This document shows, one piece after another, positions 45,451-53,082 of a stretch of DNA of 64,000 nucleotides. The stretch is from Microthyrium microscopicum (lineage: Eukaryota), in the NCBI GenBank assembly GCA_010405405.1, contig MU004238.1, positions 1,685,530 through 1,749,529 of the forward strand, written 5' to 3'. A model generated the notes under the pieces. That model worked only from the letters and a program-made list of their open reading frames with translations, was not told the DNA's origin and did not search any database. The position numbers and the translations under genes are program-made. Within the stretch, counting starts at the first letter, position 1; each line of letters opens with the position of its first letter.

Positions 45451-47368
45451 TTACACCTTCTCGCTAACATCATGTTTCTCTTGACCGGCTGTGCGTTCGG
45501 TGGGAGGTGTAGCCGGTCCACTCTCCTCGTCTGGAAATCGAATGCTTCTGTTCCAAAAGGCATTTCCAGTCTCCAAGTTCGGGTTACGCCCAGTGACATT
45601 TCCTTCCTCTGGAGTTCCGGTGCCGTTTTTAGGACTATGAGCGCTTGCGCTGTCTCCTAGATGGGCCGGTATGGGAGTACCAATTTTCCATCCACGTGGA
45701 GGTGTGGGCACACGAGATGTTCCACCATGTGGCGAACCGCTGGTTCCGGTTCCGTCGGTACCAGCAGGACGATTTCGCTCAAAGTCAAGGTTTGTTTCGG
45801 ACATTTCTGAGATGGCCCTCGAGAGCGTACGCGGGATGTAGAAACCAAGTTTGCCTAATGGGATTGACAGGCCATGGACGAACTGCTATGGTCAGCGGTT
45901 TGATGGGAAAGTTATTGATGGGTATACATACCACGCTACAAACCACAGAGAACCAGATAACGATTCGTAGAATCTCTTCTAGCCTTCTGGCATCATCTCT
46001 CTCTTCACCTTCATACTGAATATTCTTCCTCAGCCAATCTATTGTGACGTAGAGATAGAACAGTGCAGACACCCCGATTGGACCGAAAAACCCAACGAAC
46101 ATAGCCTGGCGAATGTGTTCGATTTGATGAATTCTTTTGTGCATCAGTAGGACAACCGGAGGTCGTCGAAACAGTAATATCATGATACCAAGAGGGACCA
46201 AACGATATAATGGAATGACAGAATTATGAGCGAACTCATACCAAGGTGCGGTAGCTCCAATCCAGATGAAGAATGCGACGTTGAGAAGCATGTCAATCGT
46301 CGGCTGCAGTGAGTCGTCCTCAGTCTCTACTCGAAACCAGTCACTACAATTGTCAGTAAAGTCTACCTAGAGAAGCAATCGATGAGCTTACTCCCATGTA
46401 AAGGTGTTGCCAGCAATGAAACAAGCCAGAACATCATCGGTGCCTATCATACCAGCAGTGCCCACGATGAATAGCTAGAGCAGGGTCAGTCGAGGTTCTC
46501 CTACTAAGAAGCTATCGAACTTACCGCTACTGCAATTGCAAACACCAAGAAACTTTCACGATCTACATATTTGTTCTTCTCGGCCCAGTGAAGTAGCTCT
46601 TTGGCAAGCCAGCCCACTACAGCCCCGTATATGATCCCTAACAGAATCTCGTATACCCAAATTTCGTACATCCACATCCCAATCGCCGTGCCGGCATTTC
46701 CATGTGAGCCTCTACCACCTTCCAGAACGAACTTGATGAGATAAAGCGCAAAGAATAGAAATGGATAGCCTAGTCCGTCATTGGCTCCACTTTCCGCAAT
46801 GATGATGCGCTGCAGTTCCCGAGGAATGTTCTTGTCTGCGAACTTGCCCTTGACGATGTTGTTGGCAAGTACGGGGTCGGTGGGCGTGATACATGCCCCG
46901 ACTGCCATGGCATACAGAATTGTCAGGTTTGGTACCATTGCCCAAATCAGAAAGCTTGATAGTAGCCACATGCCAATCATGCCAGGGCCTAGAAGGTAGG
47001 CGAGTGATCGCCATTCGAGCTGCAAGTATTTACTAGGCAGTTGAACGCCGGCGATGAAAAGCTGAATTCCCAGAACTAGGCGAGAGAAGTCGAGCGTAAT
47101 CGTATTGAGTGTCTCTTCGCTGCCCAGAGCATACTCTAATGGGCGAATGAGATTGGCGGCATGCGGTGAGAATATGACGCCAGCTATGGTTGAGATAACT
47201 GTACGGAAGATTAGTGAATTATAATTCAGGTAGGAAGTTCTAATACTCACGGGTTTCAGAGAGGTAAAACTTCTCTTTGAACAAGAACGATATCAAGCCA
47301 AAGAGCGCAATGAATGCTCCCAGGGTGGCGCAGACAATGTTGAAACTGACAACAGCAAGAGTTGGCAT
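45451..47368 (-). CDS. Plasma-membrane Na+(K+)/H+ antiporter, Nha1/Sod2 (CPA1) family
   Basis: Multi-exon; start MPTLAVVSFN. Motifs KEKFYLSE, TPTDPVLA, AESGANDGLGYPF, GTDDVLACF and GFFGPIGV. Confidence 0.88.
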
Positions 47369-48328
47369 ATTGGTGACAAGATTGAGACAAAGAGTAGCTA
47401 GTCGACACCCAGACACGAGCCTGGATAAGTAATTACTGTTATTGAATCATGTGGATAATTGAGATATTGTTCATCAGCACTTCTCATCGACGTGGAGTTT
47501 GGCGGAAGTAGAGGGACTGCGATCACTGATCTTTCACCTCAGTCGTGACTTTTGAGCTACCAGGACGGGGTACGACAATAAGCTGAAAATGCAAGATGGA
47601 AGAGGCAAGTTAAGGCGATTTTGGTGTCAAAAGCCAAAATCTGGGGAGAAAAGAAGAAGAGAGGATTACACAGGACGCGATTGGGGCTCAAGAAGCTTTA
47701 AGGCGTGAATTTGGTTGGTGATCAGCAGGGATGCGCCGGATAGCAACCATTACGACAGAAAACCAAGACTAACTTTTCTTTCTGTCCCTCTCTCGGATAC
47801 TTTTCCGACTTAACCAGCGGATACTTACCAGACCTGTGCCCTGCCTTGAGTCCCCGGGTCCAGTTTTCAAGTTTTGAAGTACTCTAAAAGACGCAATCAT
47901 TGACTCAGTCTTCGCGTTTCATTTGGTGATGAGCAAGTCCTTCCACCTCGCGCAAACACAAACCTTTAGGCAAAGGATCTTATCTCAAGAGATGGGAAAG
48001 AGACATATTGCCAAGGTCAGCCAAGGCAGCCAAGCTACTCTATAGATCATGTTGAGGCAAACAATGGACTCATCAACGCTACGATTATCTAGAGCACTTG
48101 TCAACTGTAAGTATTCTCTACGCAATCGTGAACTTACACCACTTCAGCCAACTGTTTTTCGTTACCGAGTACACCAAGAGATCATTGTTTGATTTGGCTT
48201 CAGCCTTAAGCTGATTCATGAAAATTGTCAAACTCTATCAAATTCCAAACGATTGCTAAATTACATTGTATGATGCTCTCCACCCGACTTTGGTACTCCG
48301 TCGACCTCCAAAGAAAAGTCAGATCCTC

Positions 48329-50694
48329 TCAATCCTTTCGATTGTTCGGATGAAAACTGCACTTCCTTCCATGAGCGCTGTTATCGCTGTCGACTATCTT
48401 TTTATGAGAGGCTAGACATTCGTAACAGAACTGGTATTCGCAACTCGAACCTGTACGAAAGCCACGGGTCAGGATACGTTCTCTCGATTATGACAGCAAC
48501 GACAAGTGCTATGATGTTCCTGAGCATCCAGGAGCATGACGGGATCTGTATGGATTGAGGCATCCCCAACAGAATTCATGGCGACATTTGATACCTAATG
48601 AGAACAATTAAAGCCATCCCTCAACGCATTTCTGATGGATGAAGACAATGTACTAAGGATCATTTCGAAAAGCTGACGTACCATATGAAGGCGAGTTCAA
48701 AGACAGCAAGGCGGGAAACTAGAAAAGAGCAGCGAAACAACTTACAGGTCATATGAGCACTATCAAAATCAGTAAAGGTTCACTAGTAACAAAGCAGATC
48801 ATAAACTCACCATCCATCGTTCTTCTCAATAGGCCATGTACATTTCGGGCACTTCTTTGTGGTCCTCGCTATAGTACGAAGATTAGCCTGTTCTTCTTTA
48901 GCTTTCTTCTCAGCTTCTCTCCGAATCTGCTGCCTGGCAGCTTCCGCTTTTTGTCGTTCTGCCTCTCGTCTAGCCTGTTCCCGGCGATCTCGTTCAAGCC
49001 GCGCTTTTCGATCTCGCTCGGCTTGTCGCTGGGCTTCCTCTCGCTCATCCTGTGCCATAAGAGATTGTGCGAATCTTTGATCAGCTTCCTCTTGCTCTCG
49101 TCTTATGCGCTCGACTTCTCTTTGACTTTTCTCATTCTGCTCGTTTTGTAGCTCTAGTCGACTTTGGAAATTGTCCGGATCTGCAAGAAACTCATCATAT
49201 TCTTCGCAGGAAAGTGTCTCGTGCCATGGGACCTTGTGGTGAAAGCAGAACTGTTGTTTGCATCCAATGCATCTGATTATTGGTGAGTTAGTTCCCGATT
49301 CATGAATATGCGCTGCACCGCAGGTTGGCAGTGGACAACGGAACAGTCCCGGAATCTGATCAATTGTGCTTTCGGTTGCTAGACTGGAGAACCTAAGTTT
49401 ATAGATTAATGCTTCGTTTGCTGAACTAATTGTTGATATCTATACGCACTTCTGAAAAGTGACAGGATCCGAGTATCTTTGAACGTCACTAACTTCCAAA
49501 GACTTGGAGCACTCTGGACACTTGATAGACCCTTCGTTGAATACCTTGTTCTCCATTTGAGTCTTGATATATGTTTGCAAGCAAGTCAGACACGTAGTTG
49601 CTTCATGTTGACAGTCTCTTGTAGGTCTTTGTAACGGAAAGTCGCCAGGTGGCTTTTCTTCAGCACAAATGACACATTCTCGAATATTAAGTGCCCAGTC
49701 TACAAAAGCGTCAATCATGCTAGGAAACGTTAGTGAGGATATGCACAAAAATACCACGATTCTGGTGGAAGCATCCAGTTCTTACCCTTCCGTAGCTTTA
49801 TCTGAACCTTTCTGCCGGTCTGTTGAGAGGAACGGGCTTCCTCTGCTTGTGTTACTCTTTGGGAAGGTGGATTTTCTCTGGACGTTTTCATTTCCCTGCT
49901 CAGCATAAAAATTATCAGCTCTAAATTCTGGTTGAACATGACTCAACATCTCTCTGGACTCAATATGCTTTGGATGAGAGGATCCAGGTGTTTTTCCTTG
50001 GGCCGTGTCCCACGCCTGCTCGTCATATGGTTGCCATAAACTCTCATCTATTGCGTTCAATACAAATTCACTTGCTTCATAGTCGTGGTTTCTGCTGCTT
50101 GTGCTCCCTCGCGGGACAGGTTGGGTGTTGAGGAGGGTCATCAGTTCTTCCTTGTATAACTCTTGAGCTCTTGATCTTGTTAGTATCTCGTCTTTGAGTC
50201 GAGTCCCATAGAATGGCAACTTACAACGCCTGGTCTCCTTCTAGAGTTGGCGCTGGAGGTGAGGATGCGCAATTATCGGCTAAATCGTTCAGTGTAGGTC
50301 TGCGAGGCTTACTAACTGGAGCATAGATGGATGTAGCCAAACCACTGGTCTGCTCAACGGGATTCTTCGGTGCATATGGACCTGCCTGCCGACCTGGAGC
50401 ATATCTAGAGGTTGCCAGCTCATTGCCAGGCCTGAAAGAGAAGTTCGACGTGACGCTAGGAGGCTCGCGTACTGGAGCGTCTATCAAAGTACTCAATCCA
50501 TGAGATCGATTGCCATTCTTTCCAGGTACAGCTCTGCTGAGTCTACTCCTCGGCGCGTAAATCGAACTAGCCAACCCAAGATCGGGTGCAGAATTGCTCG
50601 TGGCACTAACTGGCCTACGCCGAATTTGGCTATGAAAGCCATTTTGTGGCATTTCGTTTGGAAGAGCGGTATGAACGTCCCAGGAGCCTGGCAT
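48329..50694 (-). CDS. RING-IBR-RING (RBR, Ariadne-like) E3 ubiquitin ligase; 5' end uncertain
   Basis: RING1 CVIC...CQH...CLTC...CPEC, then IBR exons, a charged coiled coil, and RING2 KKCPKC...IEKNDGCAHMTC built with a 14 nt micro-exon (48759-48746). Two candidate last exons. Confidence 0.75.
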
Positions 50695-51634
50695 CGCAGG
50701 TGACGTTCTGATAGGCAAAGGATGTATTTTCGAACTGTACTGGAAGGGGCTTCGGCCACCACTATAAAGCTGATCAGCATTGTTCCAACACTCCACGATG
50801 TATCAGATCCACACTCATTAGCATTTCAAAGAGTAACACTAATGTCTTGGCTACTACAGCACCTAGTCTGGAGGGCTCATCTCACTGATTTGCTGTCTCA
50901 ATATCTTCTACTATTGCATCCTCGTAGACTGTGGAAAATGTATGAGCTCTGCGCGGGTAGTAGGTCTCCCTAGAGCGCTCGTCGTCAACGTAAGGCTGAA
51001 CATCGTGCTTCTCATCACGGTCGATATTGAACACCTGGCTGACTTTTTGAGAAAGTCGCCGAAGCATTCTTGAAACGCAACGGAAAGGTCTACGCAAAGT
51101 GAATGTTCGGGTCTTGGTTTCAAAGTAGAAGAAAGTACAAAAGGCAGATGGACGTGAGGATGTACAACACCAGGCTATGAGGTATATAGCTCCATCTCGG
51201 TCATGCCAGGCTGGCTTTCGTATAGCGGGTTGCTACTCGTCGCGTTAGGTTAGATCAGCCAACTCATCATCAGGCTGAGAACAGACCTGTAATCGAGTTA
51301 CTATCAATACCTCAAAAATGGAGTTTAGTTTGGCGTAAAGTCATGTTAACACTGACGTGCTCCAACCAAAAAGATGATCGTCGAAATGTAACTAAAAACA
51401 CGTCCTGATTAGGTTGATTTGAATGGACAGACCAAAGGTTCAGCCGAACCAGTGTCTAGCTAACACTGGTATATGCATGTTGCTAAAGTAGCCAATAAGA
51501 GACCCCTTACTACACATGCTTGTTTCTGCAAACATGGCGCCTACGTCTCCAAGTAAACAGCGCTATGCAGAAAACCCAATGGCCAAAACGCGAACGAGCT
51601 CTTAGGCCTCAATATCATTAGTAACACGCCAGAA

Positions 51635-52711
51635 TCATATCGATGACCTCGAACCACGACTAAACACCCGCTTTAGTGACCAAAATGCAGTCTTGTCTTC
51701 AGGATTTGGCTCCTCAAACTCAAACGGATCACGCAGACTGCCAGGAACAGATGTCCGTCTACCATCCAATTTGTCACGCCCGAAAAGCGCCCAAAGTCCA
51801 CCATTCGGCTCGCCTCCGCCATCCACTTCAGTCAGTCCATTGTCATCATTATCATCATCGCTTCTCTGACGTCTCCGTCCTCTAGTGACTGATGGTGTCC
51901 TGGCATATAGCATTGAACTGCGAGCACTCGCGGACTTGTCTCTTTGATCCATTAATCTCTGTAGACGACCGCGCTCTTTTTTGGCGAAGCGATCATAGCG
52001 TACTGCGATATCATGTTCCATTTGGCGCTCTAGCTCCTGTGGTGAGGGAGATGGTGAGGGCCGTATGATTTTGGATTTCCTGACTTTCTTTGTGTTTTGT
52101 GCTTCGAGTTCGGCTTTGGCGGCCTCGTCTTCTTCTTTCTGCTGCTTTTGCTGTCGATCTTTGCGCATAGCGACCAGGCTGGGATCTGAGAGAATTCTAG
52201 ACCCTAAATAATCTGATGAGGTCCATCCAAGGCATCGTGTCCATAGAGAGTCTAGCGCATCTTGCGCGCAGTCAGCGAAGATGCCAGCTACAACGATATC
52301 TTCAAGAGGGATTTGGCCAACGCTGACATCTCGTAGCTTAACGAGTGTGGCAATGAAAGAAGCAGGGCCTGGGCCCTCGAGGGCTGAAGCTTGCACGAAG
52401 AGCGCCAGATGGATTTGAGATGGATGCGCAAGTTTTGGATGGACAGTGGTGACGAATGCTTCGAGAATGAGATCAGATAGTTGGTGACAAGCTTGTTGAG
52501 CGGCAAAATACTCGGGGTACATTTTCGCGATGTGGAGCTCGATGAGAAACATGTGTGGGTCGGGAACGATTGTGTAGGAGATTTCTTCTGGGTTCAGTCC
52601 GCGGTCTGGTCGAGATTGCGAATGATCATTGTCGTAGCGTGTTACGAGCGCGCCTTTGGGAATATAGCTGTGGTTATAGTCGTCTGACATTTGCCATGCC
52701 TTGGGGTACAT
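51635..52711 (-). CDS. Hypothetical protein
   Basis: Open frame of about 358 aa from the first ATG; charged low-complexity C-terminus; no family recognised. Confidence 0.55.
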   Translation of the reverse strand: MYPKAWQMSDDYNHSYIPKGALVTRYDNDHSQSRPDRGLNPEEISYTIVPDPHMFLIELHIAKMYPEYFAAQQACHQLSDLILEAFVTTVHPKLAHPSQIHLALFVQASALEGPGPASFIATLVKLRDVSVGQIPLEDIVVAGIFADCAQDALDSLWTRCLGWTSSDYLGSRILSDPSLVAMRKDRQQKQQKEEDEAAKAELEAQNTKKVRKSKIIRPSPSPSPQELERQMEHDIAVRYDRFAKKERGRLQRLMDQRDKSASARSSMLYARTPSVTRGRRRQRSDDDNDDNGLTEVDGGGEPNGGLWALFGRDKLDGRRTSVPGSLRDPFEFEEPNPEDKTAFWSLKRVFSRGSRSSI

Positions 52712-53082
52712 CTTGAAATTTTCTCTGGTACGGCCAGGTTCAATGGTTGGGCGAGTCTTGGGTTGCGTAGGCGACACAATTTCTGAGCAGAAGGATGGGA
52801 AGAGGTAGACAATTCACTTTGAAGACCACGTCTGGCTAAGACAAATCTTTGGTAGTATCCAGGAAAGTCGGTCCGCAGATATTCCGGTGGTTTGAGGATC
52901 CAGGATTAGATGAAATCGAGGTGTTTACATAGGTCAGGAGCTTAGAGATTAGGGAGAGCAAACCATTGAGGTGCTTAAGAGGAGCTCAAACCTGAGGACT
53001 TGCTTTATATGCTACATACGCAAGTTACTGAATCGATAGTGAAATCCTAGCATAGCCGTCTCCCAGAAAAAAGTTACTCTGC

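What the first reader, a model, noticed from the sequence alone, without database searches (positions are those of the whole stretch)
48329..48761. RBR ligase with two duplicated, mutually exclusive terminal exons for RING2
Seen: after a 14 nt micro-exon (48759-48746, C-A-H-M-T, containing the catalytic Cys) a phase-1 donor can join either of two acceptors. Exon A (48594-48509, TTAAT...CATTAG) gives CIKCRHEFCWGCLNPYRSRHAPGCSGTS*. Exon B (48450-48329, CTGAC...TACAG) gives CSSCEYQFCYECLASHKKIVDSDNSAHGRKCSFHPNNRKD*. Both are in frame, both supply CxxC-xx-FC-xx-C plus a His-x3-Cys tail, and each has its own stop. Inference: exon duplication allows alternative catalytic-domain C-termini. This type of alternative splicing is rarely described in fungi and would be missed by gene predictors.
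Basis: seen in the sequence. Interest (0 to 1): 0.72.

Follow-up and report, generated by a model that had tools for sequence, protein, structure and literature searches.

The report
Fungal E3 ligase with two swappable catalytic tails
A fungal ubiquitin ligase gene can finish its catalytic domain with either of two neighbouring coding segments, an arrangement kept in many related fungi that most automatic gene models get wrong.

Summary
On the minus strand lies the RBR E3 ligase gene of Microthyrium microscopicum (public model BT63DRAFT_427519). A 14-nt micro-exon (48759-48746) carries the catalytic Cys-x-His. Its donor can reach two phase-1 acceptors. Tail A (48594-48509) and tail B (48450-48329) each supply the remaining zinc ligands of RING2 and have their own stop.

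RNA contigs of one run show the micro-exon-to-A junction exactly, then run unspliced through A's stop and through B into the 3'UTR. So this is best described as a choice between two 3' splice sites, not as two exons with separate poly(A) sites. No B junction appeared in those contigs, which cannot show absence.

The strongest evidence is conservation. Of 25 related metagenome loci with enough downstream DNA, 25 have the micro-exon and 24 have intact A and B in the same order and phase. One locus has a decayed A. In Fusarium oxysporum, single locus tags carry an A-tail, a B-tail and an intron-retained protein record. Of 108 public family proteins, 53 use B, 16 use A and 36 are truncated at the micro-exon.

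Verdict: a real and ancient alternative catalytic tail. It is a new variant of known kinds, and what distinguishes the two isoforms functionally is unknown.

The parts
50886..51067 (-). Coding exon 1. The ATG is at 51067-51065.
   Evidence: Sequence. An RNA contig joint, 50761/50886, skips 124 nt with GT..AG ends. The spliced translation equals P0001 up to the micro-exon.
50225..50761 (-). Coding exon 2, a low-complexity N-terminal region.
   Evidence: RNA joints 50761/50886 and 50169/50225. No Pfam family matched.
49786..50169 (-). Coding exon 3.
   Evidence: RNA joints 50169/50225 and 49719/49786.
49450..49719 (-). Coding exon 4, which holds RING1 (a C3HC4-type Cys/His pattern).
   Evidence: ORF. 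Pfam RING hits are only sub-threshold (zf-C3HC4 14 bits against a cut-off of 21). RNA joint 49390/49448 read with the cut +2, so the intron is 49449-49393.
48811..49392 (-). Coding exon 5: the IBR domain, a long charged helical linker, and the first half of RING2 (CPKC ... IEKNDG plus two bases of the catalytic Cys codon).
   Evidence: Pfam IBR PF01485 at 53.3 bits against a cut-off of 24.3. The RNA contig ends at 48811 with 17 loose letters, which are the micro-exon plus GTA.
48760..48810 (-). A 51-nt phase-2 intron inside the catalytic Cys codon.
   Evidence: GTGAGT ... GATAG. The same intron position is found in all 25 related loci.
48746..48759 (-). The 14-nt micro-exon. It completes the catalytic Cys and encodes A-H-M-T plus the first base of the next Cys codon.
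   Evidence: It is present in RNA as loose ends at 48594, 48760 and 48811. It is conserved as a 14-nt unit with a GTRAG donor in 25 of 25 loci, plus L022. The motif aligns with the GC-x-HM of parkin RING2 in the orthologue alignment.
48595..48745 (-). The 151-nt intron removed when acceptor A is used. Its donor GTAAGT starts at 48745. A non-canonical branch candidate, TTAAT, lies at 48611-48607.
   Evidence: The exact junction is shown by the RNA contig. No CTRAY motif lies within 50 nt of acceptor A here, and it is found in only 1 of 16 lineages.
48676..48681 (-). An alternative donor, GTACGT, inside that intron. Joined to acceptor A it makes a 78-nt exon, shifts the frame and stops 6 codons into exon A.
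   Evidence: RNA joint skipping 87 nt (48595-48681), depth 48.9. The translation is 683 aa with a premature stop.
48509..48594 (-). Tail A. It encodes 28 codons (the first Cys codon takes its first base from the micro-exon) and then TAG, and completes RING2 in the canonical form C-x2-C-x4-C-x2-C-x7-H-x3-C.
   Evidence: Pfam IBR_1 at 27.9 bits. The RNA junction lies at 48594. Intact in 15 of 16 distinct relatives, which keep all ligand positions.
48451..48508 (-). The 58-nt spacer between A's stop and acceptor B. It holds a canonical branch motif, CTGAC, at 48472-48468.
   Evidence: Sequence. CTRAY at -22. In relatives the spacer diverges to about the alignment floor (0.34-0.63 identity in distant pairs) while the exons stay at 0.6-0.8.
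48329..48450 (-). Tail B. It encodes 40 codons (the first Cys codon takes its first base from the micro-exon) and then TGA. It has the same C-x2-C-x4-C-x2-C core, followed by a family-specific extension (H-x2-I ... DNS-x-H-x3-C-x-F/W-H-P-x-N).
   Evidence: It matches the annotated C-termini of orthologues. It aligns without gaps over 39 codons in 16 of 16 lineages, with third-position entropy about twice that of positions 1 and 2. No RNA junction was seen here.
47704..48328 (-). The 3'UTR, shared by both forms if B is used. In the A form the UTR begins at 48508 and contains B.
   Evidence: An RNA contig of 891 nt is colinear over 47704-48594.

Best explanation
The gene encodes an RBR (RING1-IBR-RING2) ubiquitin ligase whose catalytic RING2 domain is assembled from three pieces. 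Exon 5 supplies the first zinc pair. A 14-nt micro-exon supplies the catalytic Cys-x-His. One of two adjacent alternative segments supplies the last six zinc ligands.

The single donor after the micro-exon (48745) pairs with one of two acceptors. The proximal acceptor (48595) gives tail A: a short canonical RING2 end whose stop codon leaves B in the 3'UTR. The distal acceptor (48451) gives tail B, with the same core, a 12-residue longer loop containing a short helix, and a conserved H-P-x-N end.

The choice is most likely made by competition between two branch sites. One is a conserved weak, non-consensus site upstream of A. The other is a consensus CTRAY site in the A-B spacer.

Shown here: the anatomy, the A junction in RNA, conservation of both tails under coding constraint, and both tails as annotated isoforms in another genus.

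Inferred: use of B in this species, the branch-site competition, and the idea that the two enzymes differ in acceptor choice or regulation.
For: - Anatomy and reading frames.
- RNA: run X1 is spliced, with 6 GT..AG joints on the minus strand. One 891-nt contig (depth 116.7) carries exon 5 end + micro-exon + A, and is colinear through B to 47704.
- Conservation: 33 loci were fetched. 3 end before RING2, 3 belong to an intronless other RBR family, and 2 have under 200 nt downstream. Of the remaining 25, all 25 have the micro-exon and 24 have both A and B intact, in the same order and phase. L002 has B plus a decayed A remnant. These are about 16 distinct lineages, at only 38-57% identity to the window in exon 5.
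- Constraint: in divergent pairs synonymous differences are saturated (pS 0.5 to above 1) while pN is 0.03-0.4 in both tails. Codon-position entropy is 6.9/5.7/10.3 bits for the A core and 27.2/22.4/47.9 bits for 39 B codons, and A keeps its last ligand pair (H or C, then C) in 16 of 16.
- Isoforms: FOIG_03643 has three protein records identical for 537 residues that diverge right after the micro-exon into an A tail, a B tail and a retained intron. FOCG_06954 also has three records (A, B and intron-retained), and FOXG_07719 has an A-tail and a B-tail record.
- Different annotations of closely related fungi pick different tails: Colletotrichum scovillei has P0133 with B and P0138 with A, and Neonectria has P0034 with A and P0147 with B.
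- Branch motif: CTRAY lies within 50 nt upstream of A in 1 of 16 lineages and of B in 9 of 16.
- RBR identity: Pfam IBR, PDB sequence hits to parkin and ARIH1 RING2, and Foldseek hits to HOIP, HOIL-1, ARIH1/2, RNF216 and parkin.
- Models of the two Fusarium isoforms are alike up to residue 545. B adds a helix at 552-557.
Against: - No joint or loose end at 48450 was seen in the only RNA data set available. It consists of assembled contigs from one run, which drop rare variants.
- A de Bruijn contig does not prove that one molecule carries A and runs through B.
- For the closest locus pairs, dN/dS of A is near 1 on very few changes (1 synonymous against 4-5 non-synonymous). The variable part of A therefore evolves fast.
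- One lineage (L002) has lost A, so A is dispensable there.
- The branch-site count (1/16 against 9/16) is a motif tally, not a test, and 7 of 16 B acceptors also lack CTRAY.
- That the Fusarium isoform records rest on RNA is my recollection of how those annotations were made. No call shows it.
- Nothing here bears on whether the two proteins differ in activity.
Confidence: 0.75

Rival explanations
1. In this species only tail A is used. B is an ancestral terminal segment that still looks intact but is now merely 3'UTR, meaning a recent, lineage-specific loss of the alternative.
For: Only the A junction is seen in RNA, and the contig runs straight through acceptor B. Loss of one tail does happen: L002 has lost A.
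Against: B in the window keeps the open frame, the AG|GT phase-1 acceptor, a canonical CTGAC branch motif at -22, and every position that is invariant across the 16 lineages. The one example of an unused tail, L002's A, decayed to a truncated remnant. Contigs cannot show absence.
Confidence: 0.13
2. B is the only active enzyme form. A is a regulatory decoy: the proximal acceptor brings in an early stop and so turns down the amount of active ligase, as in unproductive splicing.
For: Annotators chose B more often (53 against 16 of 108). B's RING2 is modelled with higher confidence than A's (pLDDT 75-83 against 61-76). Frame-shifted and intron-retained forms exist at the same site, so the junction is leaky. 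The variable part of A evolves fast.
Against: A is not just a stop. It keeps all six zinc-ligand positions in 15 of 16 lineages, with H-to-C swaps that preserve metal binding, and shows a third-position excess of change. It fits the general RING2 profile better than B (27.9 against 11.5 bits). It aligns with parkin and ARIH1 RING2 through its last Cys. A decoy needs none of this.
Confidence: 0.1
3. Chance open frames or an annotation artefact: the two segments are not coding.
For: None beyond the fact that the public model of this gene contains neither tail.
Against: The motif occurs twice in the window and only here, against 0.32 expected per window. There is a Pfam hit, an RNA junction, and conservation in 24 of 25 loci.
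Confidence: 0.01

Closest known systems
RBR E3 ubiquitin ligases (parkin, ARIH1/HHARI, HOIP, HOIL-1, RNF216)
   Same: It has the RING1-IBR-RING2 order and an IBR above the Pfam cut-off. RING2 has CPxC ... G-C-x-H-M-x-C ... FCWxC and aligns with parkin and ARIH1. The fold matches HOIP, HOIL-1, ARIH1/2, RNF216 and parkin. That the Cys and His of GC-x-HM are the catalytic pair is established knowledge for parkin and HOIP, recalled here and not tested.
   Different: The linker between IBR and RING2 is a single helix of about 165 residues in the orthologue models. The catalytic motif sits on a 14-nt micro-exon. The second half of RING2 comes in two genomically encoded alternatives. I know of no solved or described RBR with alternative RING2 halves. 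Searches listed none.
Tandem exon duplication with mutually exclusive splicing in animals (for example U2AF1 exons 3/Ab, and human tandem duplicated exon substitutions)
   Same: Two adjacent homologous segments with the same phase, one used per mRNA, produce isoforms identical except for a homologous stretch inside a folded domain. The arrangement is ancient and conserved. Seen only as search listings and abstract starts: PMC5224494, PMC9741552, PMC8373072.
   Different: Those are internal exons flanked by shared exons. Here the alternatives are terminal, A has its own stop, and B is not spliced out of the A form but stays in the 3'UTR. The host is a filamentous fungus. None of the 15 papers listed held the term 'filamentous fungi' together with the mutually-exclusive-exon or exon-duplication terms, and no paper listed concerns a fungal gene, judging by title and abstract start.
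Alternative last coding exons where the upstream one carries a stop and leaves the downstream one untranslated (KRAS 4A/4B type; recalled)
   Same: There are two alternative C-terminal coding segments, and use of the first puts the second into the 3'UTR. PMC9882654 appeared in the listing; only its abstract start was seen.
   Different: In KRAS the upstream segment is a cassette exon with its own donor. Here there is no splice between A and B, so the event is a choice between two acceptors 144 nt apart. The tails complete a catalytic zinc domain rather than a membrane anchor.

Membership tests
RBR (RING-between-RING) E3 ubiquitin ligase | N-terminal RING1 (C3HC4) that binds the E2 | tested here: inconclusive
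   The Cys/His pattern is visible in the exon-4 ORF. Pfam RING models score only below their cut-offs (zf-C3HC4 14.0 bits against 21). In the Fusarium orthologue model, Foldseek matches HOIP RING1 (7v8f_B, TMt 0.59).
RBR (RING-between-RING) E3 ubiquitin ligase | IBR domain | tested here: met
   PF01485 at 53.3 bits against a cut-off of 24.3, E 2.9e-14, on exon 5.
RBR (RING-between-RING) E3 ubiquitin ligase | RING2/Rcat with a Cys-x-His catalytic motif and two zinc sites | tested here: met
   The CPKC ... G-C-A-H-M-T-C motif spans exon 5, the micro-exon and the tail. Exon A alone reaches IBR_1 at 27.9 bits against 27. The orthologue's A isoform aligns with parkin RING2 over 72 residues, E 1.2e-8.
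RBR (RING-between-RING) E3 ubiquitin ligase | Forms a ubiquitin thioester on the RING2 cysteine | not testable with these tools
   Needs biochemistry.
Mutually exclusive exons in the strict sense | Homologous neighbouring exons with the same phase and compatible reading frame | tested here: met
   Both have phase-1 AG|GY acceptors. They share a 12-residue core, 6 of 12 identical in the window and up to 10 of 12 in L016. Coding lengths are 86 and 122 nt.
Mutually exclusive exons in the strict sense | Internal exons, each spliced to shared exons on both sides, with exactly one retained | tested here: not met
   Both are terminal and each has its own stop. The RNA contig that uses A is colinear through B. 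I therefore do not file it as a strict MXE cluster. It works like one at the protein level.
Alternative 3' splice-site choice from one donor | Both junctions present in RNA of one organism | tested here: inconclusive
   The A junction is shown and no B junction appears in the contigs of the single run. In F. oxysporum both tails exist as protein records of one locus tag, but the RNA behind those records was not seen.
Alternative 3' splice-site choice from one donor | Both acceptors and both downstream frames conserved across species | tested here: met
   24 of 25 loci (15 of 16 distinct lineages), with the constraint shown.

The most novel reading that the evidence does not exclude
Ascomycete moulds have kept an ancient splice switch since before the classes Sordariomycetes and Dothideomycetes separated, and possibly before Eurotiomycetes did. 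The switch gives one RBR ligase two different catalytic-domain endings. One is a minimal canonical ending. The other has a family-specific loop, helix and H-P-x-N tail next to the active site. The two enzymes would differ in what they ubiquitinate (acceptor residue, chain type or substrate) or in self-inhibition, with the ratio set by competition between a deliberately weak and a strong branch site. That would make it the first conserved, duplication-derived alternative coding segment in a fungal enzyme active site, and a natural experiment on what the C-terminal half of Rcat contributes.
Probability: 0.4. Interest if true: 0.78.

Novelty: new variant of a known kind. Interest (0 to 1): 0.64.

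Why it matters
- In fungi, alternative splicing is mostly intron retention and is often treated as noise. A splice choice that swaps half of an enzyme's catalytic zinc domain, and that is kept with both frames intact across lineages sharing only about 40-55% identity in the neighbouring exon, argues for real isoform function.
- It offers a clean handle on an open question in RBR enzymology: what does the C-terminal part of Rcat contribute to acceptor and linkage choice? Nature supplies two versions on an otherwise identical enzyme.
- There is a practical annotation issue. 36 of 108 public models of this family stop at the 14-nt micro-exon, and the rest pick A or B arbitrarily. Orthology tables, domain counts and knock-out designs for this ligase are therefore unreliable.

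Tried and rejected
- **Whole genome:** none is held for this window, so I could not search for paralogues.
- **RNA runs:** no RNA holder is listed on record. The single run X1 is labelled 'RNA?' as a guess. It proved to be spliced, but it is kept only as contigs, so junction counts, 3' ends and rare isoforms cannot be read. The absence of a B joint is not evidence of absence.
- **Homologue search with a Dothideomycete-centred alignment:** only 5 hits. Taxonomic breadth within Dothideomycetes stays open, with only Microthyrium and Periconia named.
- **The 210-aa exon as query:** also 5 hits.
- **First motif scans:** these used wrong spacing or required a whole first Cys codon and found nothing. 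Corrected. The strict AG|GT rule missed AG|GC acceptors, which was fixed after reading the DNA.
- **dN/dS for the closest pairs:** uninformative for A, with too few changes.
- **A splice between A and B (a protein carrying both):** rejected. The RNA contig is colinear from 48594 to 47704 with no joint.
- **Foldseek on the whole 577-residue model:** this confirms only the RBR class. It says nothing specific about tail B.
- **Earlier findings of this scan:** none exist.
- **Literature:** no listed paper describes this gene family's alternative tails, the locus tags, or duplicated alternative exons in filamentous fungi. I saw only listings and abstract starts, and subscription journals are not covered.
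Full report
**What is there.**

The finding lies at the 3' end of a minus-strand gene running from the ATG at 51067 to 48329. Read with the intron after the micro-exon retained, it translates exactly to the public protein BT63DRAFT_427519 of Microthyrium microscopicum (P0001, 684 aa).

RNA contigs of one coded run (X1) fix the upstream introns. There are four further GT..AG joints within the gene, all on the minus strand. Exon 5 (49392-48811) carries a Pfam IBR domain (53.3 bits, cut-off 24.3), a long charged linker, and the start of RING2.

**Check of the observation.**

Every coordinate is right.
- Exon 5 ends two bases into a Cys codon.
- A 51-nt intron follows.
- The 14-nt micro-exon 48759-48746 completes that Cys and adds A-H-M-T plus one base.
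- Its GTAAGT donor can join AG|GT at 48594 (tail A, stop ending at 48509) or AG|GT at 48450 (tail B, stop ending at 48329).

Spliced by coordinates, the products are 684 aa (A) and 696 aa (B). The core motif ..C...[FWY]C..C occurs twice in the six-frame translation of the whole window, only at these two places. Simulated windows average 0.32 hits. Tail A alone reaches the Pfam IBR_1 cut-off (27.9 bits), whereas tail B scores 11.5 bits.

**RNA in this species.**

X1 is labelled RNA only as a guess, but its contigs are spliced, so it is RNA or cDNA.
- An 891-nt contig (depth 116.7) is colinear with 47704-48594. At 48594 it carries 27 loose letters, equal to the last 13 nt of exon 5 plus the micro-exon. 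This shows the exon 5, micro-exon, A junction to the base.
- The same contig continues unspliced through A's stop, the 58-nt spacer, all of B and about 620 nt more.
- A second contig (depth 48.9) uses another donor, GTACGT at 48681, to the same acceptor A. This shifts the frame and stops early.
- A loose end at 48760 shows the micro-exon followed by retained intron, which is the form the public model encodes.
- No joint or loose end at 48450 was reported.

Contigs drop rare variants, and a contig is not one molecule. So this shows that A is used and says nothing firm about B. The upstream exons have depth 252.9, but contig depths cannot be used to apportion isoforms.

**Relatives: both tails are conserved.**

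A scan of metagenome contigs with an alignment of the exon-5 region returned 33 loci.
- Three end before RING2.
- Three are an intronless, different RBR family.
- Two have fewer than 200 nt downstream, and one of these, L022, still shows the micro-exon.
- In the other 25, all have the phase-2 intron inside the catalytic Cys codon and a 14-nt micro-exon with a GTRAG donor.
- 24 of the 25 have an A-type ORF followed 53-214 nt later by a B-type ORF, each behind an AG|GT or AG|GC phase-1 acceptor.
- Removing duplicates leaves about 16 lineages, which share only 38-57% identity with the window in exon 5.
- The exception, L002, has B and, at the expected place, a decayed A remnant that has lost the FCW motif and stops early. 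That is what an unused tail looks like.

**Constraint on both tails.**

B aligns without a gap over 39 codons in all 16 lineages. Summed entropy is 27.2, 22.4 and 47.9 bits at codon positions 1, 2 and 3. For the 12-codon core of A the figures are 6.9, 5.7 and 10.3.

A always ends 1-9 codons after its last Cys. It always keeps a final ligand pair, sometimes with Cys in place of His (16 of 16).

In divergent pairs synonymous differences are saturated while non-synonymous ones stay low in both tails. The intron and spacer fall to about 0.35-0.65 identity while the exons stay at 0.6-0.8. For the three closest loci the counts in A are too small to read, and nominally dN/dS is about 1.

**Annotated proteins.**

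I classified 108 family proteins from two searches.
- 53 end in a B-type tail.
- 16 end in an A-type tail.
- 17 read the micro-exon and then run into intron.
- 19 stop or run on at the first donor.
- 3 are otherwise odd.

Three weak hits of other families (P0109-P0111) were left out.

In F. odoratissimum, locus tag FOIG_03643 has three protein records that are identical for 537 residues. They diverge immediately after the micro-exon into an A tail, a B tail and a retained intron. FOCG_06954 also has three records (A, B and intron-retained), and FOXG_07719 has an A-tail and a B-tail record. I recall that those annotations drew alternative transcripts from RNA data, but no call shows it.

Two annotations of Colletotrichum scovillei choose different tails, as do two Neonectria species placed in one 90% cluster.

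A profile search of 1.84 billion representatives found 860 proteins at E below 1e-30. Among the 132 newly fetched representatives in the best 150, 43 are B-type and 7 A-type, and many stop at the micro-exon. The named ones include A-like and B-like tails in different Aspergillus species and a B-like tail in Phialocephala. This is a lead that the arrangement may be wider than the two classes shown here.

**What kind of protein.**

It is an RBR ligase.
- IBR is above the Pfam cut-off.
- RING2 of the Fusarium A isoform aligns with parkin and ARIH1 RING2 (E about 1e-8).
- The model of the B isoform matches HOIP, HOIL-1, ARIH1/2, RNF216 and parkin by Foldseek.
- RING1 is visible as a Cys/His pattern but scores below the Pfam cut-offs.

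AlphaFold models of the two Fusarium isoforms are the same up to residue 545 and include a single helix of about 165 residues between IBR and RING2. Tail A ends after the last strand (pLDDT 61-76). Tail B adds a short helix at 552-557 (pLDDT 75-83). Tail A has the general RBR form (FCW-x-C, an aromatic residue, then H-x3-C). Tail B is the family-specific form.

**How it most likely works.**

There is one donor and two acceptors 144 nt apart. Upstream of A there is almost never a consensus branch motif (CTRAY within 50 nt in 1 of 16 lineages). Instead there is often a TTAA-type element. Upstream of B there is one in 9 of 16 lineages, including CTGAC at 48472-48468 here.

I infer that choosing the weak upstream branch site leads to the first AG, giving A, while choosing the strong site in the spacer leads to B. 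Because A carries a stop, B is then simply 3'UTR.

The protein consequence is an otherwise identical ligase whose active-site domain ends in one of two zinc knuckles. A difference in acceptor choice, chain type or self-inhibition is plausible but untested.

**Comparison and novelty.**

At the protein level this behaves like the tandem-duplicated, mutually exclusive exons of animals. At the RNA level it is an alternative 3' splice-site choice, resembling alternative last coding exons in which the upstream one hides the downstream one in the UTR. It fails the strict definition of mutually exclusive exons, because the exons are terminal and there is no splice between A and B.

Five literature searches (listings and abstract starts only) found nothing on this family, its locus tags, or duplicated alternative coding exons in filamentous fungi. 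The isoforms do exist as unremarked database records in Fusarium.

I rate it a new variant of known kinds, with real interest for fungal splicing and for RBR enzymology, tempered by the missing B junction in this species and the unknown functional difference.

Noticed in passing
window 48746-48759 and family proteins P0001-P0108: The 14-nt micro-exon that carries the catalytic Cys-x-His defeats gene predictors. 19 of 108 public family models stop or run on at the donor before it, and 17 read it and then run into the next intron. The public model of this very gene is one of the 17.
   Followed up: yes
window 48676-48681 (alternative donor), joined to 48594: An RNA contig (depth 48.9) uses a GTACGT donor 64 nt into the intron. 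This makes a 78-nt exon that shifts the frame and stops 6 codons into exon A. It may be noise or unproductive splicing. I did not check whether it is conserved in relatives.
   Followed up: partly
window about 48870-49160; residues 351-515 of models m110021b3b1ae and m94203d9750f9: The linker between IBR and RING2 is a highly charged E/R/K/Q-rich stretch. In the Fusarium orthologue it is modelled as one continuous helix of about 165 residues with pLDDT above 90, far longer than the IBR-RING2 linkers of the solved RBRs it matched.
   Followed up: partly
L002:2023-2500: This is the one related lineage that has lost tail A. A remnant sits behind an intact AG|GC acceptor at the expected place, but the FCW motif is gone and a stop follows after 13 codons. 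B is intact.
   Followed up: yes
P0195, P0190, P0193 (Aspergillus); P0233, P0227, P0257: A-like and B-like tails follow near-identical RING2 first halves in different Aspergillus species. Among more distant representatives, one is named from Geosiphon. This hints that the two-tail arrangement, or at least the B-type tail, is much older than the Sordariomycetes-Dothideomycetes split. No DNA was available to check.
   Followed up: partly
window 47000-47632: The next gene downstream, also on the minus strand with an intron at 47199-47250, is covered by an RNA contig about twenty times deeper (2724 against 117-253). That contig starts about 70 nt from the end of the ligase 3'UTR contig. Its ORF looks like a membrane transporter, but I did not test this.
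   Followed up: no
window 50886-52000: The 6.4-kb RNA contig that covers the ligase exons continues unbroken upstream past the ATG (51067) and into the neighbouring minus-strand ORF (51635-52813). The cause could be overlapping transcripts or a long 5' leader.
   Followed up: no
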